DNA of 32,000 nt from Candidatus Saccharimonadota bacterium (GTDB lineage Bacteria; Patescibacteriota; Microgenomatia; UBA1406; GWC2-37-13), in the NCBI GenBank assembly GCA_016432445.1, contig CP066689.1, forward strand, positions 540,001 through 572,000, given 5' to 3'. The notes beneath the pieces are model-generated. The model was given only the letters and a program-made list of their open reading frames with translations. It made no database searches and was not told the origin of the DNA. This document shows positions 1,200-27,878 of this stretch, in pieces. The position numbers were made by a program, and so were the translations under genes. Positions within the stretch are counted from its first letter, which is position 1. Every line of letters begins with the position of its first letter.

Positions 1200-2486
1200 A
1201 TGGTGCAGATTGACAATATACTTTTGCTAGCTGGGGGGGATTCTACGAGATTTTGGCCTCTTAAAGAAAAAAACTTAATGAAATATTTGGGTAAAACACT
1301 TATCGTTCATCAAATTGATCAATTAGCTAAAAAGTCTGATCGTTTGATAATCGTGGCGGGAATTCACAATAAAGAAGCAATAGAAAAGATTGTTGAACAA
1401 CAGCCGGAAATTAGCGGTTGCGCAATTGAGATAATTCTTCAAAATGAAAAGTTAGAAGGTCAAGGAGGGGCAGTACTTTCGGCTAAAGGTAAAGTAAATG
1501 GAGATGTATTGATATGTAATACCAATGATATTTTTGATTATTCTTTTATAGATAAACTAGCAGAAACTAAAGAAAAAAAAGATTTTATTTTTTTAGCTAA
1601 AAAAGTAAATGAATATTTTCCCGGAGGCTATGTTGAGTTTGATGAAAACAATAAAATCAAAGGAATCATTGAAAAACCTGATCCTGAAAAAGTTCCTTCT
1701 GACATCACAAAACTTGTTGTTGATTATTTTGCTGATTTTGAAGAGCTTACAAGTGCATTAGAAAAAGTTACAACTGATAAAGATGACTGGTATGAACAGG
1801 CTTTATGCAAGATTATTGAAAAGACTAATAACTCAGATTATCTGCTTTATGACAGCTATTGGTACACTATTAAATATCCTTGGCATATACTTGATATGAA
1901 TAATTATTTTCTTTCTCAGATTAAGCAAACTTATATCGATAAAAGCTCATTAATATCAAAAAATGCAGTTCTTGAAGGAATGGTGCATATCGGAAAAAAT
2001 GTAAAAATAGGAGATTTTGCTAAGATTGTGGGACCTTGCTTTATAGGTGAGGGAACAGTTATTGGCGATTTTACAATGATCCGAGCCAGCCATATTGGAA
2101 GTCATTCTTTAATTGGAGGATATTCAGAAGTAACAAGATCTTACCTTGGAGAAAGAGTAATGCTGCACCGCAATTATGTGGGTGACTCAGTATTGGCAGA
2201 TGATGTTCTGATGGGAGCTGGTGCCGTTACTGCCAATTACCGCTTTGATGAAAAAATGATAAATTCAATGAGTAAGGACAGGTCTAGACCTGTCCCTACA
2301 AATAGGCAAAAATTGGGAGCAATAATAGGAAAAAAGACAAAAATAGGAGTTAATAATTCGATTTATCCGGGAATAAAAATCGGAAGTTTTTGTTTAGTTG
2401 CTCCTCAAGGTTTAGTAGATAGTGATGTTGAGGATAATGTTTATTTAATTAAAGGAGTTAAGAAAAGGAATGAACTGAATCGATAA
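1200..2486 (+). CDS. Sugar-phosphate nucleotidyltransferase with a C-terminal left-handed beta-helix (GlmU-like architecture)
   Basis: The N-terminus has the NTP-transferase G-loop LLLAGGDSTRFWPL. The C-terminus has hexapeptide repeats (IGKNVKIGDFAKIVGPCFIGEGTVIGDF...IGKKTKIGVNNSI). TATAAT at 1189-1194 lies 5 nt before the ATG. The CDS contains palindrome P1. Confidence 0.8.
   Translation: MVQIDNILLLAGGDSTRFWPLKEKNLMKYLGKTLIVHQIDQLAKKSDRLIIVAGIHNKEAIEKIVEQQPEISGCAIEIILQNEKLEGQGGAVLSAKGKVNGDVLICNTNDIFDYSFIDKLAETKEKKDFIFLAKKVNEYFPGGYVEFDENNKIKGIIEKPDPEKVPSDITKLVVDYFADFEELTSALEKVTTDKDDWYEQALCKIIEKTNNSDYLLYDSYWYTIKYPWHILDMNNYFLSQIKQTYIDKSSLISKNAVLEGMVHIGKNVKIGDFAKIVGPCFIGEGTVIGDFTMIRASHIGSHSLIGGYSEVTRSYLGERVMLHRNYVGDSVLADDVLMGAGAVTANYRFDEKMINSMSKDRSRPVPTNRQKLGAIIGKKTKIGVNNSIYPGIKIGSFCLVAPQGLVDSDVEDNVYLIKGVKKRNELNR
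2272..2300 (+). repeat. GC-rich hairpin palindrome P1 (GTAR...YTACA family)
   Basis: GTAAGGACAGGTCTAGACCTGTCCCTACA. Positions 2276-2295 form a perfect 20-bp palindrome. It lies in frame within the nucleotidyltransferase CDS and encodes KDRSRPVPT. Confidence 0.85.
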
Positions 2487-4944: not shown

Positions 4945-6288
4945 ATGGAGGAACAGGATAATTATTTTGAGTTTAGTTCTTATGAACTGAGTTATGACCG
5001 TCAAATAATAAAATTTCATTATAAACTCGGTATTAAAGACAAAGAGCCGTTAGAGTTTATAGAAACTATTACTCTTCCTGTACCTATTGCTGATTCTATT
5101 CCCAAAGTACTTATAAATTCTTTACTGCAAAATCTTCACTTAATGCTTGGAATAAGTTACTGGAAAATATTTTGTCAGAAAAACATTAGGATTAGTTCTT
5201 ATTCTCTCACAAAAGAACAGGCGGAGTTTTGGAATACTGTTTATACCAAAGGGTTAGGTGAATTTTTTTATAGAAACGAGATTAATTTTAAAGGACTAGT
5301 AAATTTTCCTTATAGTGAAAATGCTAATGCCGTTTCAATTAATTTTGAAAGACAAAATCGTTCTTTAGTAGGTTTAGGAGGCGGTAAGGATTCATTAGTT
5401 ACAATAGAACTTTTAAAAGAAAAATACAAACGGATAACCGCTTTTATTTTAGAAACTCAAAGACCATATCCTTTAATTCAAGGATTAATAAACAATATCG
5501 GCATTGATTCTTTAACAATAAAAAGACAGCTTGATCCTCAGCTTTTTGAAGCTAATAAAATGGGTGGGGCTTACAACGGTCACGTTCCTATCTCAGCAAT
5601 TTACGCTTTTGTCGGACTACTGGCTGCAGTTGTTTACGATTACCGCTATGTCATCGTCTCTAATGAAAAAAGCGCCAACATAGGCAATGTTGAATATTTT
5701 GGGCAAATAATTAATCATCAGTGGAGCAAATCGGAAGAATTTGAGAGGCTTTTTCAAAATTATACAAAACAGTTTGTTACTCCTAACGTTTATTATTTTT
5801 CATTAATCAGGCCATTATCAGAGATGAAAGTTACAGAAATATTTTCAAAGTATGATAAATATTTTAAAATATTTTCAAGCTGTAATAATAATTTTAGGGT
5901 AGGGATAACCCTAGGGTTGTCTGTACATCAAAAATGGTGCGGCAGCTGTCCTAAATGCGCTTTTGTTTTTTCAATGATGGCAGCATTTTTACCTAAAACT
6001 AAACTAGTTGAGATATTTGGGAGAAATCTTTTTGCCGATCAATCTCTTATGAACATGTACAAAGATCTTTTGGGTATTGGCGATATTAAACCTTTTGAGT
6101 GTGTGGGTACATTTGAGGAATCAAAAGCCGCCTTTTACAAAGCATATTTAAATAAAGAGTATGAAAAAGATGCAGTTATGCAGATGTTTGAGAAAGAAGT
6201 TCTGCCCAATATTAACAATCCTGATGAACTGATAAAAAAGGTTTTATCGACCGGGAATTCATCAATGATACCTGAGGAGTTTAAATAA
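4945..6288 (+). CDS. PP-loop (adenine-nucleotide alpha-hydrolase-like) protein; candidate MurL-type UDP-MurNAc-L-Ala-L-Glu epimerase
   Basis: It has an SGGKDS-type PP-loop, VGLGGGKDSLVTIELLK, about 140 aa from the N-terminus, and a C-terminal cysteine cluster, WCGSCPKCAF. It sits between mraY and murD and ends 1 nt before the murD start. TATAAT at 4932-4937 lies 7 nt before the ATG. It contains palindrome P2. The product name is an inference from context. Confidence 0.55.
   Translation: MEEQDNYFEFSSYELSYDRQIIKFHYKLGIKDKEPLEFIETITLPVPIADSIPKVLINSLLQNLHLMLGISYWKIFCQKNIRISSYSLTKEQAEFWNTVYTKGLGEFFYRNEINFKGLVNFPYSENANAVSINFERQNRSLVGLGGGKDSLVTIELLKEKYKRITAFILETQRPYPLIQGLINNIGIDSLTIKRQLDPQLFEANKMGGAYNGHVPISAIYAFVGLLAAVVYDYRYVIVSNEKSANIGNVEYFGQIINHQWSKSEEFERLFQNYTKQFVTPNVYYFSLIRPLSEMKVTEIFSKYDKYFKIFSSCNNNFRVGITLGLSVHQKWCGSCPKCAFVFSMMAAFLPKTKLVEIFGRNLFADQSLMNMYKDLLGIGDIKPFECVGTFEESKAAFYKAYLNKEYEKDAVMQMFEKEVLPNINNPDELIKKVLSTGNSSMIPEEFK
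5899..5927 (+). repeat. GC-rich hairpin palindrome P2
   Basis: GTAGGGATAACCCTAGGGTTGTCTGTACA. It shares the 15-mer AACCCTAGGGTTGTC with P3. Both stem imperfections are G-T/T-G wobbles on the plus strand. It lies inside the PP-loop CDS and encodes VGITLGLSV. Confidence 0.8.
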
Positions 6289-10478: not shown

Positions 10479-11747
10479 ATGGCTGATAAACTAATCTGCG
10501 GTGTTGATATAGGCAGTTCAAAAATAGCAACTGTTGTTGGGATTGATTCTCCCGATCATGATGAACTTCGCATCATCGGCTTTAACTCAACTCCATCAAG
10601 AGGAGTAAAAAAAGGCTTAGTAGTTGATATTGATCAAGTAACTACATCCATAGAAGAAAGTGTGGAAAAAGCAGAACGTATGGCTGGTCATAAAATAACT
10701 CACGCTTTTGCTTCGGTTGGAGGACCTCATATATCTTCACTTAACTCTCATGGTGTAGTTGCTGTTTCTAATCCTCAAGGCGAGATAACTGAAGATGACG
10801 TCGTTCGAGCAGTTGATGCGGCTAAAGCTATCTCTCTTTCTACGACTCGCCAGATTATTGAAATTTCACCGAGAGATTATAGTGTTGATGGCCAGTCAGG
10901 AATAAAAAATCCTGTTGGCATGAGCGGGGTAAGACTCGAGGTTGATACTCACCTTATTACAGCATCAACTACAAATTTAAAAAATATAGACCGCTGTCTT
11001 TCAGATCTTGGTATAACTAATGCCGGTTTTATTTTCTCAGGCTTAGCTTCTGCTGAAGCGGTATTAACTGATACAGAAAAAGATTTGGGAGTAGTGCTAG
11101 TTGATATTGGCGGAGGAAAAACAGATCTTTGTATTTATATTGACGGATCTTTATCTTACTCGGCGTCAATTCCTATTGGCGCCAAGCACATTACTAATGA
11201 TATCGCTGTTGGTTTAAGAGTTTCTTTAGCTTCAGCCGAGTTAATTAAAATTTTTTTAAGCAAACATCTTAATGCTAATAAATTAAAAAATAAAACAGGG
11301 GATTTACCTAATCTTAAAGAATTAAATATAACTGAAGATATCAGTGATATATCTGTTAAAAATGTTATTGAAGAAATTGCTAATCCAAGAATCGAGGAGA
11401 TTTATAAATTTATTGGAGAAGAAATAGAAAAAAGCGATTTTGCTAAAAATATTCCTTCGGGTCTTGTGATTACTGGGGGTGGAGCTTTGACTGTAGGTAT
11501 GGTTGAGGCTGGAAGAAAAATAATTGGTTTGCCGATAAGGCTTGGGATTCCTGAAAAGGTGAGTGGATTGGTTGATGAGATAATTGATACTCAATTTTCA
11601 AGTACAATTGGATTGATATTTTATGGAAAAAAACATGCTTTAAGCGAAACAAAAAAAAATAAGGATTTTAATAAAATATTTAAAGATTTTTCCATAAATA
11701 AATCTTTTTCTAAATTTAAAGATTTATTTAAACAATTTTTACCTTAA
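10479..11747 (+). CDS. ftsA: Cell division protein FtsA
   Basis: Actin-fold phosphate loops GVDIGSSKIATVVG and LVDIGGGKTDL, plus VITGGGA. The C-terminus has an amphipathic helix, FSKFKDLFKQFL. Confidence 0.92.
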   Translation: MADKLICGVDIGSSKIATVVGIDSPDHDELRIIGFNSTPSRGVKKGLVVDIDQVTTSIEESVEKAERMAGHKITHAFASVGGPHISSLNSHGVVAVSNPQGEITEDDVVRAVDAAKAISLSTTRQIIEISPRDYSVDGQSGIKNPVGMSGVRLEVDTHLITASTTNLKNIDRCLSDLGITNAGFIFSGLASAEAVLTDTEKDLGVVLVDIGGGKTDLCIYIDGSLSYSASIPIGAKHITNDIAVGLRVSLASAELIKIFLSKHLNANKLKNKTGDLPNLKELNITEDISDISVKNVIEEIANPRIEEIYKFIGEEIEKSDFAKNIPSGLVITGGGALTVGMVEAGRKIIGLPIRLGIPEKVSGLVDEIIDTQFSSTIGLIFYGKKHALSETKKNKDFNKIFKDFSINKSFSKFKDLFKQFLP

Positions 11748-21677: not shown

Positions 21678-22412
21678 ATGAAATTATTCTTTAACTTCGT
21701 TTTATACAAGACTCCGGAAAAAGAGGTTTTGCGTTTGAAAAGGGAAGTGCAAGCTTTAGGATTCTCTGATTATAAAATACATTTTTTTGATAATTCGCAT
21801 AACGGGAAAGGATTTGCTTATGGAGCAAATAAGGGCATTTGTGCTGCGCTTAAAGAAAAAGCGGATTTAATTGTTCTTGCAAATCCTGATATATCATTTT
21901 ACGCAGGTAAGGACAACCCTAGGGTTGTCCCTACATATAATGATTTTATCGAAACATCAAAACATTTTGATATTTTCAGTTTTGCTATGAAACAGGGTGG
22001 ACAATTATATTATGGCGGAGAAGTAGACCGCTGGCGGATGAGCGGCGGAGTCATTAGTAAAAAGCCTAAAGAAAGATTTGCAGAGTGTGATTTTGTATCA
22101 GCATTAATGGCGATACAAAGAGAGGTTATTGAAAAAGTAGGTTTTTTGAAAGAAGATTATTTCCTGTATTATGAAGATGTTGAGTACTGCTATAGAGCAA
22201 AAAAGCTTGGTTTTAAGGTAGGCATTGATTCTCAGCATTTGTATGAACATTTTGAAAGTTCAAAAGGAAGCAAATTGAAAAACCATTATCTTTTCTGGAA
22301 TAGAGTTAAGTTTATGAGAGAGTATGGTACTCTTTCCCAAAAAAGCAGGGAACTATTAAGATTGCCTAAAACTTTTTTTGAAATATTTACCAATAACACC
22401 CGCGGGGTGTGA
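21678..22412 (+). CDS. Glycosyltransferase family 2 (rhamnosyltransferase-like, short)
   Basis: Motifs GFAYGANKG, LANPDISF and YYEDVEYCYRAKKLGFKV. TATAAT at 21664-21669 lies 8 nt before the ATG. It contains palindrome P3. Confidence 0.75.
   Translation: MKLFFNFVLYKTPEKEVLRLKREVQALGFSDYKIHFFDNSHNGKGFAYGANKGICAALKEKADLIVLANPDISFYAGKDNPRVVPTYNDFIETSKHFDIFSFAMKQGGQLYYGGEVDRWRMSGGVISKKPKERFAECDFVSALMAIQREVIEKVGFLKEDYFLYYEDVEYCYRAKKLGFKVGIDSQHLYEHFESSKGSKLKNHYLFWNRVKFMREYGTLSQKSRELLRLPKTFFEIFTNNTRGV
21907..21935 (+). repeat. GC-rich hairpin palindrome P3
   Basis: GTAAGGACAACCCTAGGGTTGTCCCTACA. Positions 21911-21930 form a perfect 20-bp palindrome. It lies inside the GT2 CDS and encodes GKDNPRVVPT. 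Confidence 0.85.
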
Positions 22413-22417
22413 TTAAT

Positions 22418-23431
22418 ATGAAAATATCGGTTGACGGTGGAGGACTCTGCGCTAGTGAAGATCAAAGATTTGGGAACTACACTTTCAGCAGAAATTTTCT
22501 TCAGGCATTAAATAAATACGATAAGGAAAATGAATATTTTGTTTATACATTTTGTAATTTAAACGAAGGGACAGAACACTGTTTTGTCCCTACATTATTT
22601 AACAAAAGAATAAAATTCGAAAAATTACTGCCTAAAAAATTTTGGATGAAAGGCAGAGTAACTTTAGAGGAAATACTTAATAGAAAAGATATTTTTTTTG
22701 CTTTAAACCAGGCATTACCGCTTTATACCTCAGCTAAAATCATTTCTTTTTCCCACGGATTATCTTTTTACTTTCACCCTGAATATTATCCAAATGATTA
22801 TCACCGTTTGAAAAATCAACTTAATGAAATGCTTAAAAGATCGCAATACATTATTGTTTCTTCTCAAAAAGTCAAAAATGAGATTGCTTCGTTATCCCTT
22901 GCAATGACAGAAAAAATTAAAATTATGCCGTTTGGGATACCATTCGATATGGAAGATTATGTTCCTCACAGAAGAGAAAAATATTTTATGTATGTAGGAA
23001 TGAATACACCTGTAAAAAATATTGATTTCTTGAAACAAGCTTTTAATAAGTTTAATATAAAAGCGGAGTATAAACTTTACATGATTGATTCCAATATTAA
23101 AAGAGATGAGTTAAGGAAAATGTATGCTAAAGCAACTGGATATCTGACTGCATCTCATTACGAAAGTTTTAATTTTCCGGTTCTTGAAGCTTTAAGTCAA
23201 AAGTGTCCCGTTATAGCTTTAAAATCTGCAATCATACCTGAGATGGAAGGATATGTTGATGTCGTAGGGGACGCAGATCTGCGTCCCGTACATTATAAAA
23301 ATGAATTTGTTAAGAAAATGATAGCAATTGCTAACGGAAAGCATAAAAAAATTGATAGAATCAAGTTATTGAAAGATTTTTCTTGGAAAAATTGTATTAA
23401 TAAACTTCAGAATCTTTACTATTATGAATAG
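22418..23431 (+). CDS. Glycosyltransferase family 1/4 (GT-B, EX7E type)
   Basis: The C-terminal motif is SHYESFNFPVLEALSQKCPVI. I prefer ATG 22418, which has a GGGGTG purine stretch 8 nt upstream. The alternative GTG 22409 overlaps the upstream stop as GTGA. It contains palindromes P4 and P5. Confidence 0.8.
   Translation: MKISVDGGGLCASEDQRFGNYTFSRNFLQALNKYDKENEYFVYTFCNLNEGTEHCFVPTLFNKRIKFEKLLPKKFWMKGRVTLEEILNRKDIFFALNQALPLYTSAKIISFSHGLSFYFHPEYYPNDYHRLKNQLNEMLKRSQYIIVSSQKVKNEIASLSLAMTEKIKIMPFGIPFDMEDYVPHRREKYFMYVGMNTPVKNIDFLKQAFNKFNIKAEYKLYMIDSNIKRDELRKMYAKATGYLTASHYESFNFPVLEALSQKCPVIALKSAIIPEMEGYVDVVGDADLRPVHYKNEFVKKMIAIANGKHKKIDRIKLLKDFSWKNCINKLQNLYYYE
22565..22594 (+). repeat. GC-rich hairpin palindrome P4
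   Basis: GAAGGGACAGAACACTGTTTTGTCCCTACA. It has 12-bp arms around a single central C, with one G-T wobble. It lies inside the GT4 CDS and encodes EGTEHCFVPT. Confidence 0.8.
23264..23292 (+). repeat. GC-rich hairpin palindrome P5
   Basis: GTAGGGGACGCAGATCTGCGTCCCGTACA. Positions 23268-23287 form a perfect 20-bp palindrome. It lies inside the GT4 CDS and encodes VGDADLRPVH. Confidence 0.85.
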
Positions 23432-24200
23432 TATAAAACTTTCAGTCATCATACTGACAAAAAATGAAGAAAAAAATATTGAAAGATGTTTAAACTCAGT
23501 AAGGCATGCTGATGAGATCGTTGTTATTGATGATAACTCAGAAGATGAAACTGTTGACATTGCGAAAAGATATGGCGCTAAGACATTTCAAAAAAAACTT
23601 GGTGATTTCGCAAGCCAAAGAAATTTTGGTTTGGATAAAGCTCAAGGCAGGTGGATTTTGTTTATAGATGCCGATGAAGAACTGACGACTCAGTTAGTAA
23701 CAGAGATAAACAGCGCTATTAACAATGACAATAACGACAGTTTTTTTATTAAGAGAAGAGATTTTTTTATGGGAAAAGAGATAAAACATGGAGATGTAAA
23801 ATCAGCTAGAGAGCGCGGTTTTATTCGGTTGGTGAAAAGAGGGTCTGGCAAATGGGTCGGTAATGTACATGAGGTTTATCAACCAAATGTAGGGGCGCAT
23901 CGTGATGCGCCCTTACTCAAGAGCTTTATTAATCATTATCCTCACCCGACCATCAAAGAATTTTTAAGTGAAGTAAATTTTTACAGTACAATGCGTGCTA
24001 AAGAACTTTATTCATCCAAAAAAACCGTAAATATTATTGAAATAATTTTTGTTCCTTTCGCAAAATTCTTTTGGAATTATTTTATAAGATTAGGAGTGCT
24101 TGATGGACCTGAGGGTTTTATTTACGCATTCTTTATGAGTTTTCATTCCTTTTTAGTCAGAGCAAAACTTTATCAATATAAAAACTACCCAAAATATTAA
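23424..24200 (+). CDS. Glycosyltransferase family 2 (WaaE/KdtX-like)
   Basis: Motifs LSVIILTKNEEKNIERCL, IVVIDDNSEDETV and ILFIDADE. It overlaps the upstream gene by 8 nt and contains palindrome P6. Confidence 0.82.
   Translation: MNSIKLSVIILTKNEEKNIERCLNSVRHADEIVVIDDNSEDETVDIAKRYGAKTFQKKLGDFASQRNFGLDKAQGRWILFIDADEELTTQLVTEINSAINNDNNDSFFIKRRDFFMGKEIKHGDVKSARERGFIRLVKRGSGKWVGNVHEVYQPNVGAHRDAPLLKSFINHYPHPTIKEFLSEVNFYSTMRAKELYSSKKTVNIIEIIFVPFAKFFWNYFIRLGVLDGPEGFIYAFFMSFHSFLVRAKLYQYKNYPKY
23889..23916 (+). repeat. GC-rich hairpin palindrome P6
   Basis: GTAGGGGCGCATCGTGATGCGCCCTTAC. It has a 9-bp stem with a 2-nt loop, plus a G-T wobble and a GTA/TAC clamp. It lies inside the second GT2 CDS and encodes VGAHRDAPL. 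Confidence 0.8.
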
Positions 24201-24316
24201 ACATACTTTTTTATTTAACTTTCTTTACGTTTTCTTTCGGTCAGTTAGGCCGATTATCTTTTTTTAATCAGGAAGCGAATCTTTATTTATATGAATTATT
24301 TTTAGGCACGCTTTTT

Positions 24317-25366
24317 TTGTATTTTATTTTCAAATATAAACTTAAGCCATTTCGATTATTGTTAAACAAATTCGCTTACATCGCTTATTTTTTTTTATTT
24401 TTAATTTTGGATTTCCTCCTGAAAATAAACTCTTTTTCATCGTTTGAAAATTTCATCTCTTCTCTTTATTTATTAAGGCTCTTATTTTATTTCTTATTTT
24501 TTATATTTTTTATATTTTTTTTAAACAAAAATAGACAGTTTTTACAGCTCATTAGGAGGGGATTAATAATATGTCTGGCCTTGATATTGGTGTCTTCAGT
24601 ATTCCAGTATTTTTTTTACCCTGACTTAAGAAATCTTAGTTATTTAGGTTGGGATCCTCATCTTTATCGGGTATTTGGTACTTTTCTTGAGCCGGCGGTT
24701 TTATCAACAGTTCTTGGATTATTTTTTATTTTTATTTCGATTAATCGATTAATCAATAGAAAATATTTAGAGATAACACTTCTAACTGTTTGTTTAATTT
24801 TGATTGCACTAAGTTTTTCTAGGGGAGTTTACATAGGATTTGCTATCAGTTTAGGAATTTATTTATGGCAGAAAAAAAATAAGTACTTTTCACTTTTTTT
24901 TGCTGGGTTTATTGTTTTGATATTGCTGCTTCCCAAGCCGGCAGGTGAGGGCGTAAACCTACTCAGGAACTCAACTATAATATCGAGAGTTAATGATTAT
25001 TCTGCTGGGATTGAGGTTTGGAAAAAAGACCCGATTTTTGGAGTCGGTTACAATAGGATAAGTTATGCAAAGTCTGGAAATAATCAAAGTTCTATCAATC
25101 ATGCCAAAGCTTCCTTTCACTCGAGCTTTCTTATATTACTGGCCGGAAGCGGGATAATCGGGTTAGTCTTATTTTTGTTTGTTTTGAAAGGTTTAGCTCA
25201 GATTAATATTTTTTCTTTTTACAGTGTTATTTTTTTAAGCAGCGCTTCTTTAGTAGATAATTTATTATTGCATCCATTTATTTTGTTTGTTTTGTTTACG
25301 ATGATTGCGTATGCAAAGGGCGAGTCGCGCCTCGCCCCTACAACTATTCATCCTTCTGATAAATAA
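24317..25366 (+). CDS. O-antigen ligase/polymerase-like (Wzy_C-type) polytopic membrane protein; start uncertain
   Basis: It has many TM helices and a loop region FSRGVYIGF...GVGYNR...HAKASFHSSFLILLAGSGIIG. The reading frame is open back to 24182 and encodes a further hydrophobic segment, but no ATG/GTG/TTG precedes 24317. The C-terminus carries palindrome P7. Confidence 0.65.
   Translation: MYFIFKYKLKPFRLLLNKFAYIAYFFLFLILDFLLKINSFSSFENFISSLYLLRLLFYFLFFIFFIFFLNKNRQFLQLIRRGLIICLALILVSSVFQYFFYPDLRNLSYLGWDPHLYRVFGTFLEPAVLSTVLGLFFIFISINRLINRKYLEITLLTVCLILIALSFSRGVYIGFAISLGIYLWQKKNKYFSLFFAGFIVLILLLPKPAGEGVNLLRNSTIISRVNDYSAGIEVWKKDPIFGVGYNRISYAKSGNNQSSINHAKASFHSSFLILLAGSGIIGLVLFLFVLKGLAQINIFSFYSVIFLSSASLVDNLLLHPFILFVLFTMIAYAKGESRLAPTTIHPSDK
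25318..25342 (+). repeat. GC-rich hairpin P7 (left end degenerate, CCCCTACA tail conserved)
   Basis: GGGCGAGTCGCGCCTCGCCCCTACA, with a 7-bp stem GGGCGAG/CTCGCCC and a 6-nt loop. It lies at the 3' end of the O-antigen-ligase-like CDS. It is also immediately downstream of the stop of the convergent Ig-like gene. Confidence 0.65.
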
Positions 25367-26057
25367 CCGTAATTGTTTTGGTTTCGATATTACCGGCATT
25401 ATCCTCAGCTGTCACAACAATTTTATTTTCTCCTGGGTTAAGGTTAACTGTGGTTTGAAAATTACCATTGGAGTCAGTAACTAACGGTAAGCGGCTAACT
25501 TTAATATAGATTTCACTTTCTGTTCTTCCTGCAAGTTTAATAGATGACTGCGTAGTTTTAGAAGAATCACTTGGTTCGGTAATTTCCAGTTTAGGTTTTT
25601 CATTTTTGTATAAGACAGTGAACAGTTGAGATTTTTTTTCATCTTTTGATTTTTTAGTTGCGGCTTTTAGATAGATTTCATTGGTTCCCAGTTTCAAGTC
25701 ACCGATTTCTTCATTGAAAATTTCTGAGGACTTCAATGATATTTCTTTTACTTTTTCATTATTGAGATAAAACTCTATTTTATCGAAATTAGAGGAGTAT
25801 CCAGAGACACTAAGATTAGCGCTGTTTGTCGCAACTGGCAGATCATCAATATTTAAGATTCCATAAAAATCATCCTTTTTTTCAGTTGCTTGAGAGTTCT
25901 TTTTATCAGAAGTTAAACCCGATATAAAAAGAGTAGTGTTGACGATAAGTTTTAATCCAAAAGTTAAAAGAAGAATAACTAATGTCGATATGCAAAGTAT
26001 ATAAAAAATTAGTTTATTGCGGAACTGTTTTTGCTGATAAGAACTTAAGCGTGACAT
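25344..26057 (-). CDS. Membrane-anchored protein with Ig-like/Big-type beta domains
   Basis: An N-terminal TM helix (LIFYILCISTLVILLLTFGL) is followed by beta-rich repeats ending NPGENKIVVTAEDNAGNIETKTITVIY. The start codon shares 1 nt with the encoded CCA end of tRNA-Thr. It overlaps the convergent upstream ORF by 23 nt. Confidence 0.7.
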   Translation of the reverse strand: MSRLSSYQQKQFRNKLIFYILCISTLVILLLTFGLKLIVNTTLFISGLTSDKKNSQATEKKDDFYGILNIDDLPVATNSANLSVSGYSSNFDKIEFYLNNEKVKEISLKSSEIFNEEIGDLKLGTNEIYLKAATKKSKDEKKSQLFTVLYKNEKPKLEITEPSDSSKTTQSSIKLAGRTESEIYIKVSRLPLVTDSNGNFQTTVNLNPGENKIVVTAEDNAGNIETKTITVIYQKDE

Positions 26058-26130
26058 GGAGCCACTCGGGAGAATCGAACTCCCGTCAACGATTTACGAA
26101 ACCGCTGCTCTTCCATTGAGCTAGAGTGGC
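26057..26130 (-). tRNA. tRNA-Thr (anticodon CGT), CCA encoded
   Basis: The reverse complement folds as a cloverleaf. The acceptor stem is GCCACTC/GAGTGGC and the D arm is GCTC-AATGGAA-GAGC. The anticodon arm is GCGGT-TTCGTAA-ATCGT and the T arm is GGGAG-TTCGATT-CTCCC. It ends T-CCA. Confidence 0.88.
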
Positions 26131-26215
26131 AAAATAGTCTCTAGACTTGTGACTTTTACATTGTAATTTTATCATTAAATGGAAGAATTTGCTTTGTTTA
26201 AACTGTAGTATTTGT

Positions 26216-26315
26216 AAAAAAAAGGGGAACAGAGGTGGGAAATGTAAGGCTGCATTAAATGCAGGTTGCGGCTTGGTGCCGCAGTTGACCTTAACAAATC
26301 TTTCCTCTGTTCCTC
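26216..26315 (-). terminator. Candidate branched (three-way-junction) terminator or 3' UTR structure after the KGG gene
   Basis: On the minus strand an outer 10-12-bp helix (26304-26315 with 26224-26235) encloses two 6-bp hairpins. These are TGCGGC/GCCGCA at 26267-26283 and CTGCAT/ATGCAG at 26250-26264. The structure is followed directly by T8 (26223-26216). Confidence 0.4.
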
Positions 26316-26347
26316 AAGCTGCACCGCAGTTGGATAAGTTTACCTAT

Positions 26348-26677
26348 TTAGTTTTGAATCGCCTTCCTGGATCGGCCTCCTTTCTTTCCGATTGTGGAAT
26401 AATACTCGGGGCCGTGTTTTTCTTTCACGGCTTCGCCGCCCTTGCGGCCAATGGTGGAGTAAAACTCCGGCCCTCTTTTGGCCTTTACGGCATTCCCGCC
26501 CTTGCGCCCGATCGTGACGTAGAACTCGCGTCCGCGCTCTTTAGCGACAGTCTCGCCGCCTTTGCGGCCGATTTTGGCGTAGAACTCAGGTCCATACTTC
26601 TCCTTGACCTTTTCTCCGCCCTTCTTGCCGGCCTCCCTGACGGTCATCTCTTTCTTGGGCTCGTCATCTTCTGCCAT
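26348..26677 (-). CDS. KGG-repeat general stress protein (YciG/GsiB-like)
   Basis: About four 20-aa repeats of the form EFY..IG.KGG..V....G. I placed the start at the internal ATG 26677 because AAGGAG lies 6 nt upstream of it. The gene and its flanks are conspicuously GC-rich compared with the rest of the window. Confidence 0.85.
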   Translation of the reverse strand: MAEDDEPKKEMTVREAGKKGGEKVKEKYGPEFYAKIGRKGGETVAKERGREFYVTIGRKGGNAVKAKRGPEFYSTIGRKGGEAVKEKHGPEYYSTIGKKGGRSRKAIQN

Positions 26678-26847
26678 TTGTCTCTCCTTAAAATTTGTGG
26701 TACTGCCCATTTTGAGGTGATGTAATGCTACGTCAATGGGAACCTCCTCCTGTTTTATTGGTGCGTGATCTGCTGACTTTTTCTCTTCAGATCGAGAGCG
26801 TTAAATCATATCGATCCTTTAAGAACAAGGCGCAAATCCTTGATTAA

Positions 26848-26875
26848 ATTATATCCTATAATCTCTAATAATCAA
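26848..26875 (-). promoter_or_regulatory. Candidate sigma70-type promoter upstream of the KGG stress gene
   Basis: The minus strand reads TTGATT (26875-26870), a 16-nt spacer, then TATAAT (26853-26848). This implies a 5' UTR of roughly 160 nt before ATG 26677. Confidence 0.45.
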
Positions 26876-26926
26876 GCATTTTCTTATTTGAGAGTGTCCA
26901 CCAGATAAGACTTAGAGTATCTCAGT

Positions 26927-27199
26927 TTAAGGAGACTTTTTTCTTAATAGTTTTTTTATAGCAGTTAATATAAAGACTAAAGTTATTGATAATGGAAACC
27001 AAAATAGTAAATCAAATAAAAGGCCGCCAATAATTATTTTGTTTGAAAGATTTCCCATAATTCCACCACTTCCGCCATAATAAGGAAATGGCCATCCTGC
27101 TTCAAATATTTGATCACAGCATTGTCCGCTATTATTAACAAAATAAGAAAGTCTGAGAAAAAAAAGTGTTATTAAAAATGCCAGTAAAAATTTTTTCAT
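26927..27199 (-). CDS. Small hypothetical membrane/secreted protein (90 aa)
   Basis: It has an N-terminal signal/TM-like segment MKKFLLAFLITLFFL and a C-terminal TM helix. The middle segment reads GQCCDQIFEAGWPFPYYGGSGG. No SD is visible. The minihelix-like repeat B ends 3 nt upstream of the ATG. Confidence 0.5.
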   Translation of the reverse strand: MKKFLLAFLITLFFLRLSYFVNNSGQCCDQIFEAGWPFPYYGGSGGIMGNLSNKIIIGGLLFDLLFWFPLSITLVFILTAIKKLLRKKSP

Positions 27200-27202
27200 T
27201 TG

Positions 27203-27240
27203 CAGAGCGGGAGACGCACTTTTATTTGAACCGCTCCTGC
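27203..27240 (-). repeat. tRNA-acceptor-like minihelix repeat, copy B
   Basis: The minus strand reads GCAGGAG-CG-GTTC-AAATAAAAGT-GCGT-CTCCCGC-T-CTG. The 7-bp terminal stem GCAGGAG/CTCCCGC has one A-C mismatch. It ends 3 nt upstream of the ATG of the 90-aa ORF. Confidence 0.6.
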
Positions 27241-27323
27241 TTGAATTTATATCTCATTTTAGCAAGTTAATGGGAGTTTATAAAGCTGAGTAGGAAATGG
27301 AAAATTGATATAATCTTGTTACT

Positions 27324-27878
27324 ATGCCAGAAAGATTAAATTCTTCGGATAACGAAGCAAATAAAGGTTACGAAAAAAGAAATACCCTTAATGATATAAG
27401 ATCAGTTGGGGCTACTAAACCTTTAGGCTATCTACCCTTTAGTCATATTATGGAACTTGGAGAGACACCGGAAAACTTGATAGCTGAATCTTCATCAAGA
27501 GGTCTGGAATACAAAACAATTCAGCCAAATGACGTATCCTCTTCAAATTCTATTTTATATGTATTTGACAGAGAAGCTCTTCAGAAATTATTAGACGAAA
27601 GAAGACAAATTCTTGAAGATGTTCAATGGCCGACAGAAGCAGAATCATTTGTGCATTATATAGCCCAGCATAAAGCTCCACAGGAAACAGAATTGTTTGA
27701 TGTTGTTGCTGATGCATTTGCTGATTTCACTAATCCTGGCAGGAAAACATTCCCTAAACCATTAACAACAAGACAAAAAATTAACATTACTATTACAAAA
27801 ATGATTGGAGCCCCACAATTTGCTAGAAATAGAATAGCATTTAACAAACAACTCAAAGAGAGAAAATCATTAAAATAA
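27324..27878 (+). CDS. Hypothetical protein (184 aa), no recognisable domain
   Basis: This is the only long ORF here. TGATATAAT (extended -10) at 27306-27314 ends 9 nt before the ATG. Confidence 0.6.
   Translation: MPERLNSSDNEANKGYEKRNTLNDIRSVGATKPLGYLPFSHIMELGETPENLIAESSSRGLEYKTIQPNDVSSSNSILYVFDREALQKLLDERRQILEDVQWPTEAESFVHYIAQHKAPQETELFDVVADAFADFTNPGRKTFPKPLTTRQKINITITKMIGAPQFARNRIAFNKQLKERKSLK

What the first reader, a model, noticed from the sequence alone, without database searches (positions are those of the whole stretch)
21907..25342. Family of ~28-bp GC-rich hairpin palindromes with conserved GTAR...YTACA ends, embedded in frame in intact CDSs
I found seven copies by eye.
- P1 (2272): GTAAGGACAGGTCTAGACCTGTCCCTACA
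- P2 (5899): GTAGGGATAACCCTAGGGTTGTCTGTACA
- P3 (21907): GTAAGGACAACCCTAGGGTTGTCCCTACA
- P4 (22565): GAAGGGACAGAACACTGTTTTGTCCCTACA
- P5 (23264): GTAGGGGACGCAGATCTGCGTCCCGTACA
- P6 (23889): GTAGGGGCGCATCGTGATGCGCCCTTAC
- P7 (25318): GGGCGAGTCGCGCCTCGCCCCTACA

Shared architecture: most copies have a 3-bp GTA/TAC clamp, one unpaired position, and then a stem of about 10 bp with a G/C-rich base. The internal stem sequence differs between copies but stays self-complementary, which is covariation.

Statistics: three copies contain perfect 20-bp palindromes. The naive chance expectation is about 4^-10 per position, or about 0.03 per 32 kb. That figure is not composition-corrected, and GC-rich arms in an AT-rich genome should be rarer still.

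Orientation and RNA-level signal: every non-Watson-Crick position inside the stems is a G-T wobble on the plus (sense) strand. These are P2 T5906-G5919 and G5903-T5922, P4 G22574-T22584 and P6 G23892-T23913. On the antisense strand these would be A-C mismatches. All copies point the same way relative to the coding strand, and the right end (CCCTACAtta) is better conserved than the left.

Location: all copies lie inside uninterrupted ORFs, and four are read in the same frame as ...V/A-P-T. Five of the seven fall in the glycosyltransferase cluster, with consecutive spacings of 658, 699 and 625 bp.

Comparisons from established knowledge: REP elements carry a conserved GTAG head next to an imperfect palindrome recognised by RAYT/TnpA-REP Y1 transposases, but REPs are extragenic. 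Rickettsia palindromic elements insert in frame into genes but are much longer.

Inference: this is a mobile or structure-selected intragenic hairpin element. It could act as an RNA processing, pausing or attenuation signal, or as a single-strand DNA recognition site. I know of no description that matches it.
Basis: partly seen in the sequence, partly recalled or inferred. Interest (0 to 1): 0.85.

Follow-up and report, generated by a model that had tools for sequence, protein, structure and literature searches.

The report
REP transposon hairpins inside CPR genes
The seven GC-rich palindromes are real, but they belong to an already described family of small mobile hairpins (REP elements served by a RAYT tyrosine transposase), here sitting in frame inside genes of a tiny, gene-dense Roizmanbacteria genome.

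Summary
All seven palindromes are at the stated coordinates, inside long plus-strand ORFs, and about ten times more numerous than shuffles predict. They are not a new kind of element.

- **Family:** the 28-nt GTAG…CTAC palindrome occurs across many bacterial phyla and in phage contigs. Its ends are conserved and its core is almost always self-complementary.
- **Transposase link:** in at least 8 of 120 genome loci the palindrome lies in frame inside a Y1 (HUH) transposase gene, just after the HUH motif. This matches the "double-foot" REPs of TnpA_REP subclass 2.4 (RAYT group 4; Quentin 2018). Intragenic GTAG REPs were reported by Di Nocera 2013.
- **This genome:** the window's Roizmanbacteria MAG encodes such a RAYT (QQG44804.1). 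It carries VGTGRDLSLQ, the peptide a REP of this family encodes.
- **Orthologs:** none encodes the hairpin residues.

Two things remain unexplained. Copies inside host genes usually keep only one intact GTAG foot. They also add only 2–8 residues instead of 9–10.

Verdict: new member of a known kind, moderate-low interest.

The parts
2272..2299 (.). P1: 28-nt REP, GTAAGGACAGGTCTAGACCTGTCCCTAC. It lies in frame (SKDRSRPVPT) in a nucleotidyltransferase/hexapeptide-repeat (GlmU-like) gene at 1200-2486. The canonical GTAG foot is on the bottom strand only.
   Evidence: Covariance model E=3e-9. Same core as the copy inside the Patescibacteria RAYT gene in L078. Only +2 aa relative to 15 homologs.
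5899..5926 (.). P2: decayed REP, GTAGGGATAACCCTAGGGTTGTCTGTAC, 24/28 identical to P3. It lies in frame (VGITLGLSVH) in an uncharacterised 447-aa ORF at 4945-6288. GTAG foot on the top strand only.
   Evidence: Covariance model E=0.35, which is marginal. DNA fold is not better than shuffles, z=-1.1.
21907..21934 (.). P3: 28-nt REP, GTAAGGACAACCCTAGGGTTGTCCCTAC. It lies in frame (GKDNPRVVPT) in a 244-aa ORF at 21678-22412 with weak GT2-like similarity. GTAG foot on the bottom strand only.
   Evidence: Covariance model E=9e-9. Weak Pfam GT2 hit for the host.
22565..22593 (.). P4: 29-nt REP variant, GAAGGGACAGAACACTGTTTTGTCCCTAC. It lies in frame (EGTEHCFVPT) in the GT1-family glycosyltransferase gene at 22409-23431. 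GTAG foot on the bottom strand only.
   Evidence: Covariance model E=2e-4. +7 aa relative to homologs, in a variable loop.
23264..23291 (.). P5: 28-nt REP, GTAGGGGACGCAGATCTGCGTCCCGTAC. It lies in frame (VGDADLRPVH) in the same GT1 gene. GTAG foot on the top strand only.
   Evidence: Covariance model E=3e-3. +8 aa relative to all 17 homologs. DNA hairpin -11.9 kcal/mol, z=-5.7.
23889..23916 (.). P6: 28-nt REP, GTAGGGGCGCATCGTGATGCGCCCTTAC. It lies in frame (VGAHRDAPLL) in the GT2 glycosyltransferase gene at 23424-24200. GTAG foot on the top strand only. It is inverted relative to P1 and P3 in its R/Y asymmetry.
   Evidence: Covariance model E=2e-9, minus strand scoring best. +4 aa relative to 18 homologs, in a variable loop.
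25318..25341 (.). P7: REP with an eroded 5' end, GGGCGAGTCGCGCCTCGCCCCTAC. It resembles the family member GTAGGGGCGAGCGATCGCTCGCCCCTAC. It encodes the C-terminal tail (KGESRLAPT) of the Wzy_C/O-antigen-ligase-like gene at 24317-25366. It sits 2 nt beyond the stop of the convergent gene at 25344-26057, the usual REP position between convergent genes.
   Evidence: Covariance model E=0.14. Related family member listed.

Best explanation
The palindromes are REP elements of the 'double-foot' type: a G+C-rich hairpin with the guide tetranucleotide GTAG at its 5' foot and the complement CTAC at its 3' end, so that either DNA strand can present GTAG plus hairpin. In the published model this class is the substrate of TnpA_REP/RAYT Y1 (HUH) transposases of subclass 2.4 (Bertels group 4). 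These enzymes bind the folded hairpin on single-stranded DNA, read the GTAG guide, and cut and rejoin nearby. The window's genome encodes one such enzyme elsewhere on its 1.10-Mb chromosome. In a CPR genome with almost no intergenic DNA, new copies land mostly in genes. Only copies that keep the frame, avoid the TAG/TAA-creating phase and fall in tolerant surface loops survive, here mainly in fast-evolving envelope glycosyltransferases. They are then translated as roughly 10 odd residues. The window copies look old or immobilised: each keeps only one intact GTAG foot, and P2, P4 and P7 are further decayed. Shown here: family membership, the presence of the cognate transposase in the same genome, and the absence of the encoded residues from orthologs. 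Inferred: that this RAYT mobilised these copies, and how.
For: (1) Pan-bacterial family. GTARGGAC-N12-GTCCYTACA hit 20 viral loci. GTARGGACA-N10-TGTCCYTACA hit at least 120 genome loci from Patescibacteria, Bacteroidota, Chloroflexi, Cyanobacteria, Nitrospinota, Spirochaetes, Gammaproteobacteria and others, at 30-69% GC. The unconstrained inner 10 nt are fully self-complementary in 130 of 165 matches. Length is 28 nt in 163 of 178 copies, a figure biased because the search patterns fixed that length. On 54 distinct copies, 98.3% of cells are paired and the covariation score is 0.478 against 0.107 in shuffles.
(2) Transposase link. Seven of the 120 loci (L052, L062, L067, L078, L083, L135, L145) carry eight intact copies in frame inside 170-200-aa ORFs, just after the HUH motif. 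An eighth locus, L043, has a decayed copy at the same place. The ORFs hit Pfam PF01797 Y1_Tnp, two of four above the curated cut-off. Their best NCBIfam hit is REP-associated tyrosine transposase. A profile of the clade hits only 4ER8, E. coli TnpA_REP, in the PDB.
(3) Same genome. P0215 = QQG44804.1, 'MAG: transposase [Candidatus Roizmanbacteria bacterium]', lies on a contig of 1,103,789 bp. The window's own QQG43817.1 and QQG43818.1 lie on a contig of the same length. P0215 keeps the invariant HUH histidines, the WQ motif and the tyrosine, and contains VGTGRDLSLQ. In L135 and L083 that peptide is encoded by GTAGGGACAGGTCGCGACCTGTCCCTACA.
(4) Literature match. Quentin 2018 (PMC6006769) describes subclass 2.4 with NH[IFV]H, WQ and YIxNNP motifs, double-foot REPs, and REPs inserted in frame within tnpA_REP between HuH and Y. 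Di Nocera 2013 (PMC3733652) reports intragenic GTAG REPs.
(5) No ortholog has the hairpin residues at P1, P4, P5 or P6.
(6) In loci below 48% GC the family is mostly extragenic: 22 of 105 copies are intragenic against 61% of random positions. The intragenic state in Roizmanbacteria (window 7/7, L045 2/2) is therefore a property of the host genome, not of the element.
Against: No transposition or cleavage by a subclass-2.4 RAYT has been shown, here or in the papers read. The DNA of the RAYT gene of this genome could not be fetched, so its internal REP is inferred from the peptide. P0215 has DHFH rather than NH[IFV]H and, as annotated, lacks about 10 N-terminal residues. Net length gains over orthologs are +2, +4, +7 and +8 aa, not the +9 or +10 expected of a clean 28-30-nt insertion. 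In another Roizmanbacteria genome, a copy in YchF adds 0 to 3 aa. No empty site or target duplication was found. None of the window copies has two intact feet. The stems in the window (five different cores) differ from the core inferred inside the genome's RAYT gene.
Confidence: 0.82

Rival explanations
1. The hairpins are kept because they act in the mRNA, as RNase processing or protection sites, ribosome or polymerase pause sites, or attenuators. Their relation to REPs would be secondary.
For: The hairpins are stable: -7.7 to -11.9 kcal/mol as DNA for six of seven. Inner stems are perfect in P1, P3 and P5 even though a foot is mutated. P7 sits at the 3' ends of two convergent genes, where REPs are thought to stabilise transcripts (PMC3733652). 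Five of seven copies cluster in one operon-like gene row.
Against: The element is a near-perfect palindrome and occurs with either strand as the sense strand. Wobbles number 4 on the sense strand against 2 on the antisense strand in the window. Pair 4 is A.C on the sense strand in 5 of 7 intragenic transition cases. No T-run follows the hairpins and there is no Rfam match. Elsewhere the family is mostly extragenic and tied to a DNA transposase.
Confidence: 0.1
2. The copies were not inserted. They were written over existing codons by a conversion-like or template-switch process that copies a REP onto a partly similar target. That is why they add so few residues.
For: Net gains are only +2, +4, +7 and +8 aa. 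The YchF copy in L045 covers the conserved beta-strand before the G5 motif, with 0 to +3 aa relative to solved YchF proteins. In related phage contigs, orthologous hairpins carry different cores (L018 against L022).
Against: All comparisons are with orthologs only 45-60% identical, and mostly in variable loops. Insertion followed by compensating deletion gives the same picture. No donor-target similarity was shown, and no such activity is known for Y1 transposases.
Confidence: 0.07
3. The palindromes are chance symmetry or a by-product of coding for particular peptides.
For: None beyond the weak scores of P2 and P7.
Against: Seven observed against 0.77 expected in shuffles. The same element is read in two frames, giving unrelated peptides. 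The encoded residues are absent from orthologs. The same sequence family is present in hundreds of unrelated genomes.
Confidence: 0.01

Closest known systems
'Double-foot' REPs of TnpA_REP subclass 2.4 (Quentin, Siguier, Chandler, Fichant 2018, PMC6006769), equal to RAYT group 4 of Bertels et al. 2017 (PMC5581495)
   Same: 5' GT[AG]G and 3' C[TC]AC around a long G+C-rich stem with G-C pairs at the base. The cognate Y1 transposase has NH[IFV]H-type HuH, WQ and YIxNNP-type motifs. REP copies are inserted in frame inside the transposase gene between HuH and Y. Distribution is scattered over many phyla.
   Different: The published samples name Cyanobacteria, Bacteroidetes, Chlorobia, Caldilineae and 'various phyla'. 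Neither paper, as searched, mentions Patescibacteria/CPR or phage genes. In the window every copy is inside a host gene and none has both feet intact.
Intragenic GTAG-tagged REPs (Di Nocera, De Gregorio, Rocco 2013, PMC3733652)
   Same: GTAG REPs found entirely within ORFs of known proteins, translated in frame, and thought to be tolerated in loops or linkers. That paper also notes frequent G-T pairing in stems.
   Different: There the intragenic copies are a minority, often dimers encoding 20-30 aa, and are enriched in replication and repair genes of Opitutus, Xanthomonas and others. Here they are single 28-nt units, essentially all copies in the window, mostly in glycosyltransferases.
E. coli REP/BIME with TnpA_REP (structure 4ER8; Messing et al. 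2012, PMC3479197)
   Same: GTAG guide 5' of an imperfect palindrome, recognised on single-stranded DNA by a monomeric HUH/Tyr enzyme. 4ER8 is the only PDB hit of the profile of the RAYT clade found here.
   Different: E. coli REPs have one foot and bulged stems, are extragenic, and usually occur as inverted pairs. The enzyme belongs to subclass 2.2 (DHLH, WE).
Rickettsia palindromic elements (RPE)
   Same: Palindromic repeats inserted in frame in protein genes of a small AT-rich genome and translated.
   Different: By established knowledge, not tested here, RPEs are roughly 100-150 bp, have no GTAG foot and have no known dedicated transposase. The short R. conorii RPE-4 and RPE-6 fall in the CGTC class according to PMC3733652.
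IS200/IS605 subterminal hairpins (IS608, ISDra2)
   Same: 20-25-nt hairpins with a 5' guide tetranucleotide, read by a Y1 HUH transposase on the lagging-strand template.
   Different: Those hairpins bound a gene-carrying insertion sequence. Here the hairpin is the whole element and the transposase is encoded elsewhere.

Membership tests
REP, double-foot type (cognate of TnpA_REP subclass 2.4) | GT[AG]G tetranucleotide at the 5' foot of the hairpin | tested here: met
   Every copy has one canonical GTAG. It is on the top strand in P2, P5 and P6 and on the bottom strand in P1, P3, P4 and P7.
REP, double-foot type (cognate of TnpA_REP subclass 2.4) | Reverse complement C[TC]AC at the 3' end, giving a second foot on the other strand | tested here: inconclusive
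   The outer GTA/TAC is kept in 5 of 7 copies. The second foot is mutated in all 7 (GTAA x3, GTAC x2, GAAG, or lost). The copies read as degenerate double-foot REPs.
REP, double-foot type (cognate of TnpA_REP subclass 2.4) | Long G+C-rich stem with G-C pairs at its base and compensatory variation between copies | tested here: met
   Perfect 20-bp inner palindromes in P1, P3 and P5. GC content 0.48-0.85 in a 33% GC genome. Family-wide covariation.
REP, double-foot type (cognate of TnpA_REP subclass 2.4) | Match to a model built from family members of other genomes | tested here: met
   Model R1: P1, P3 and P6 at E about 1e-9 to 1e-8, P4 at 2e-4, P5 at 3e-3. P7 (0.14) and P2 (0.35) are marginal.
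REP, double-foot type (cognate of TnpA_REP subclass 2.4) | A RAYT/TnpA_REP gene in the same genome | tested here: met
   P0215 = QQG44804.1 lies on a 1,103,789-bp contig, as do the window's QQG43817.1 and QQG43818.1.
REP, double-foot type (cognate of TnpA_REP subclass 2.4) | REP copies within or flanking (within 1 kb of) the RAYT gene | tested here: inconclusive
   P0215 contains VGTGRDLSLQ at the expected place. In L083 and L135 that peptide is encoded by the 28-mer. The DNA of this genome's gene was not obtainable.
REP, double-foot type (cognate of TnpA_REP subclass 2.4) | Extragenic location (the 'E' in REP) | tested here: not met
   7 of 7 copies are inside ORFs. Not disqualifying: intragenic REPs are documented (PMC3733652, PMC6006769), and the family is mostly extragenic elsewhere.
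REP, double-foot type (cognate of TnpA_REP subclass 2.4) | Binding, cleavage or mobilisation by the cognate transposase | not testable with these tools
   Needs biochemistry or population sequencing.
TnpA_REP subclass 2.4 / RAYT group 4 (applied to P0215, outside the window) | HuH NH[IFV]H, W motif WQ, Y motif YIxNNP, and a variable REP-bearing insertion between beta3 and alphaC | tested here: met
   P0215 has DHFH (D in place of N), HWQRSF, YIRSNP, and VGTGRDLSLQ after the HuH strand. The H, H, W, Q and Y columns are invariant in 32 homologs. 76 of 120 close homologs show a REP peptide by a strict pattern, in frame 0 or frame 1. Pfam PF01797 is precomputed for P0215. 4ER8 is the sole PDB hit of the clade profile. 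The NCBIfam REP_Tyr_transpos scores of 59-63 bits, measured on two clade members (L078 and L135 proteins), are below the 80-bit equivalog cut-off.
Rickettsia palindromic elements | Element of roughly 100-150 bp with a family-specific consensus | tested here: not met
   The elements here are 28-29 nt.
MITE or IS-derived inverted-repeat element | Terminal inverted repeats around an internal segment, with target-site duplication | tested here: not met
   The whole element is one hairpin. No direct repeat flanks any of the seven copies (read by eye).
Intrinsic terminator or known structured RNA | Hairpin followed by a T-run, or a match to an Rfam family | tested here: not met
   No T-runs after the hairpins. 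Rfam finds only three tRNAs in the window.

The most novel reading that the evidence does not exclude
Inside host genes these REPs may not be passive insertions. Copies in non-transposase genes are preferentially 'one-footed': pair 4-25 is broken while the stem stays intact. Copies inside RAYT genes (8 of 8) and most extragenic copies keep both feet. The intragenic copies also stand in for native codons rather than simply adding about 10. This would mean either selection that disarms REPs once they sit in genes, so that both strands cannot be cut, or a replacing, conversion-like mode of spread. In gene-dense CPR genomes and in phage structural genes, either would make REPs a source of protein-loop variation.
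Probability: 0.2. Interest if true: 0.6.

Novelty: new member of a known kind. Interest (0 to 1): 0.3.

Why it matters
The finding extends the REP/RAYT system, specifically subclass 2.4 with double-foot REPs, to an ultra-small CPR (Roizmanbacteria) genome. It shows what happens when such an element spreads where there is almost no intergenic DNA: the surviving copies become short translated inserts in enzyme loops, mostly in envelope glycosyltransferases.

In practical terms, these 28-mers explain odd peptides such as VGTGRDLSLQ, RDRSRPVPT and VGAHRDAPL in MAG and phage proteins.

The one-foot bias and the small net length changes are cheap, testable leads on how hosts live with REPs inside genes. 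The central phenomenon itself is already published.

Tried and rejected
- **Known RNA families:** Rfam at gathering thresholds found only three tRNAs. A permissive scan of 26000-27400 found nothing relevant.
- **Population variation:** I looked for presence/absence polymorphism, but six Logan contigs from different runs are 100% identical to the window.
- **Extending the genome sequence:** P0215 and the first window ORF are not on record. The contig carrying the last gene ends about 500 nt beyond it.
- **Empty sites among fetched loci:** L092 and L144 are 94% identical, but the hairpin lies in a roughly 350-nt indel, so this is not a clean site. L043 against L135 shows a decayed REP inside a second RAYT gene rather than an empty site.
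- **Cultured phages:** a BLAST of a 30-mer against the INPHARED collection found no match.
- **Literature search by sequence strings:** only primer noise came back. One 2026 preprint that came up in the first literature search could not be opened.
- **P0215 against the PDB:** a single-sequence search found nothing. A profile was needed.
- **Considered and dropped:**
  - Eukaryote-like splice sites (CAG|GTAAG at P3): coincidence, since the ORFs are continuous.
  - Xer/dif-like 11+6+11 sites: the arms covary, so structure rather than sequence is conserved.
  - CRISPR repeats: the copies are not arrayed.
  - Translational bypass or RNA splicing: not needed, because all frames are open.
  - Regular spacing of about 660 bp: only three intervals and no supporting evidence.

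Full report
**1. The observation**

The window is about 33% G+C with nearly all genes on the plus strand. It comes from a Candidatus Roizmanbacteria (CPR/Patescibacteria) MAG. Its GT2 protein is 100% identical to NCBI QQG43818.1, which lies on a 1,103,789-bp contig.

Each lies inside a long plus-strand ORF and is translated as 9-10 residues. The host genes are:
- a GlmU-like nucleotidyltransferase (P1);
- an uncharacterised 447-aa ORF (P2);
- a weakly GT2-like ORF (P3);
- a GT1 glycosyltransferase (P4 and P5);
- a GT2 glycosyltransferase (P6);
- the C-terminal tail of a Wzy_C/O-antigen-ligase-like protein (P7).

GC-rich hairpins with at least 10 Watson-Crick pairs number 7 in the window; six of these are P1-P6, the seventh is an unrelated hairpin at 11159-11186, and P7 falls just below this cut-off. 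Sixty dinucleotide shuffles gave a mean of 0.77 and a maximum of 3. Six of the seven fold as DNA hairpins of -7.7 to -11.9 kcal/mol. P2 is no better than shuffles. Independent assemblies of six sequencing runs are identical to the window.

**2. The elements belong to a very widespread family**

A pattern made from the shared ends of P1 and P3, with the middle left free, hit 20 stretches of viral contigs.

The genome hits include Patescibacteria (another Roizmanbacteria, Saccharibacteria, Peribacteria), Bacteroidota, Ignavibacteria, Chloroflexi, Cyanobacteria, Nitrospinota, Spirochaetes and Gammaproteobacteria. Their G+C ranges from 30 to 69%.

The free inner 10 nt are perfectly self-complementary in 130 of 165 matches and 4/5 paired in 27 more. 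This is an unbiased test of structure, because the pattern did not constrain those positions.

The same complete 28-mers recur in unrelated phyla; an example is GTAGGGACAGGTCGCGACCTGTCCCTAC. CPR genomes share the CTAG-centred cores seen in the window: L078 has the P1 core and L072 is close to the P3 core. The length is sharply 28 nt, although the search patterns fixed that length. On 54 distinct copies, 8 of 12 pairs show changes on both sides.

A covariance model built only from these foreign copies recovers the window copies:

| Copy | E-value |
|---|---|
| P1, P3, P6 | about 1e-9 to 1e-8 |
| P4 | 2e-4 |
| P5 | 3e-3 |
| P7 | 0.14 |
| P2 | 0.35 |

The model finds nothing else in the window.

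**3. What the family is**

A RAYT sequence recalled from memory served only as a probe. It picked out ORFs that overlap the hairpins in several genome loci.

In L052, L062 (two copies), L067, L078, L083, L135 and L145, the 28-mer lies in frame inside a 170-200-aa ORF. It always sits just after the HUH strand, for example ...MPNHIHGIIEINRSSVGTGRDLSLQDIKIKSLSEIMGAYKTT.... L043 has a decayed copy at the same place.

These ORFs hit Pfam Y1_Tnp, with two of the four tested above the curated cut-off. Their best NCBIfam hit is REP-associated tyrosine transposase, below the equivalog cut-off. A profile of the clade hits only E. coli TnpA_REP (4ER8) in the PDB, aligning the HUH and W...Y motifs.

Among the 120 closest database homologs, at least 76 show the REP-encoded peptide by a strict pattern. 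It appears in frame 0 (VGTGRDLSLQ, VGTGLDLSLQ, VGTIHELSLQ and others) or in frame 1 (RDRSRPVPT, the same peptide as P1). Some copies are nested or duplicated. The nucleic-acid hairpin, not the peptide, is therefore what is conserved.

This is exactly what Quentin et al. 2018 describe for TnpA_Y1 subclass 2.4 (Bertels group 4):
- HuH motif NH[IFV]H, W motif WQ, Y motif YIxNNP;
- 'double-foot' REPs with 5' GT[AG]G and 3' C[TC]AC;
- REPs inserted within the tnpA_REP genes without disrupting the frame;
- abundant in Cyanobacteria and Bacteroidetes and scattered over other phyla.

Di Nocera et al. 2013 had already catalogued GTAG REPs lying entirely within genes.

**4. The window's own genome has the transposase**

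The homolog search returned P0215 (QQG44804.1, 'MAG: transposase [Candidatus Roizmanbacteria bacterium]'). Its only contig is 1,103,789 bp long. That equals the contig length for the window's QQG43817.1 and QQG43818.1, and the accessions fall in the same block.

P0215 keeps the invariant HUH histidines, WQ and the tyrosine. It contains VGTGRDLSLQ at the expected position. Its DNA could not be retrieved, so the internal REP is inferred from the peptide.

**5. Insertions relative to orthologs**

None of the aligned homologs encodes the hairpin residues. The net length differences are smaller than a clean 28-30-nt insertion would give:

| Copy | Homologs aligned | Net gain |
|---|---|---|
| P6 | 18 | +4 aa, in a variable loop |
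| P4 | 17 | +7 aa |
| P5 | 17 | +8 aa |
| P1 | 15 | +2 aa |

In another Roizmanbacteria locus (L045), one copy lies in a 728-aa ATPase-like ORF and one in YchF. Against solved YchF proteins, the YchF copy adds 0 to 3 residues and covers the strand before the G5 motif.

REP-coded residues therefore stand in for native ones. This fits insertion followed by compensating deletion, or some replacing mechanism. With orthologs only 45-60% identical, I cannot tell which.

**6. Where the family sits elsewhere**

In loci below 48% G+C, only 22 of 105 copies are inside long ORFs, against 61% of random positions. The family is therefore REP-like and mainly extragenic.

The intragenic copies fall into three groups:
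- those in RAYT genes;
- those in phage genes, namely terminase large subunit, a Mu-F-like protein and a DNA methylase;
- those in Roizmanbacteria.

The intragenic habit in the window is best explained by the host's lack of intergenic DNA plus selection. Phase 2 of GTAG or GTAA creates a stop codon. Consistent with that, only phases 0 and 1 are seen.

**7.

Pair 4-25 is A.C on the sense strand in P1 and P3, G.G in P2 and P5, and G.T in P6. Counting it consistently gives 4 sense-strand wobbles against 2 antisense ones. Across all intragenic copies with a transition at this pair, A.C is on the sense strand in 5 of 7 cases.

The covariance model prefers opposite strands for P1/P3 and for P6. The intact GTAG is on the top strand in three copies and on the bottom strand in four. 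No T-run follows the hairpins and no known RNA family matches.

An RNA-level side effect is not excluded. REPs are thought to stabilise transcripts, and P7 sits at the ends of two convergent genes. But the sequence gives no evidence for it.

**8. An unexplained pattern**

Foot status differs by location:

| Location | Both feet intact | Pair 4-25 broken |
|---|---|---|
| Inside RAYT genes | 8 of 8 | 0 of 8 |
| Extragenic | 69 of 83 | 8 of 83 |
| Inside other genes | 4 of 17 | 11 of 17 (6 of 11 without the window) |

Twelve of the 17 copies inside other genes keep exactly one intact foot. Fisher's test gives p = 4e-6 with the window and 1e-3 without it.

In the window the defect sits at pair 4-25 in five of seven copies, produced by three different base changes, while the inner stems of P1, P3 and P5 remain perfect. 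Random decay would not be so focused.

One reading is selection against elements that can be cut on both strands, or that stay mobile, inside genes. The sample is small and confounded with genome type, so this is a lead and not a result.

**9. Verdict**

The best explanation is a REP/RAYT system of a published class. The instance is new for CPR and unusual in being wholly intragenic, but the kind is known. The mechanism of mobilisation is inferred from the family, not shown.

Noticed in passing
window 2272-25341 (P1-P7), plus loci L012, L019, L066 and L079: Copies inside non-transposase genes mostly keep only one intact GTAG foot, with pair 4-25 broken and the stem intact. Copies inside RAYT genes (8 of 8) and most extragenic copies (69 of 83) keep both feet. 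Fisher p = 4e-6 with the window and 1e-3 without it.
   Followed up: partly
window P1, P4, P5, P6; L045:3372-3399 (YchF): REP-coded residues replace native residues rather than simply adding about 10. Net gains are +2, +7, +8 and +4 aa against orthologs. The YchF copy adds 0 to +3 aa and covers a conserved beta-strand.
   Followed up: partly
L012:1145-1172, L012:3455-3482, L013:4786-4813, L017:3986-4013: The same hairpin family sits in frame in phage genes: terminase large subunit, a Mu-F-like head protein and a DNA methylase. The two REP/RAYT papers read for this report (PMC3733652, PMC6006769) were not seen to discuss REPs inside phage genes.
   Followed up: partly
L018:3457-3484 against L022:3324-3351: Related phage contigs (about 80% identical) carry a hairpin at the same position with different, still self-complementary cores: CAGGTCGAGACTTG against CAATTCGCGAATTG.
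   Followed up: no
proteins P0150, P0156, P0184, P0186 and P0240 (RAYT homologs, outside the window): Some RAYT genes carry nested or tandemly duplicated REP-coded segments. Examples are VGTGRDAAS repeated three times before VGTGRDLSLR, and VGTGRDLSF...IIRTGHDLSLQ split by about 25 residues.
   Followed up: no
window 22392-22414: Another GC-rich palindrome (core CACCCCGCGGGGTG) spans the stop codon of ORF 21678-22412 and the GTG start of the next gene at 22409. It lacks GTAG/CTAC ends and was not matched by the REP model.
   Followed up: no
window 11159-11186: A GC-rich imperfect hairpin, CTCGGCGTCAATTCCTATTGGCGCCAAG, lies inside ORF 10479-11747. It is unrelated in sequence to the REP family.
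   Followed up: no
window 26348-26710 (minus strand): A locally GC-rich (about 43%) 120-aa gene made of five KGG stress-protein repeats (Pfam PF10685, E=2e-22). It is overlapped by a spurious 178-aa plus-strand ORF.
   Followed up: yes
window 25318-25366: The ends of the convergent genes 24317-25366 (+) and 25344-26057 (-) overlap by 23 nt, and P7 sits right at this junction.
   Followed up: no
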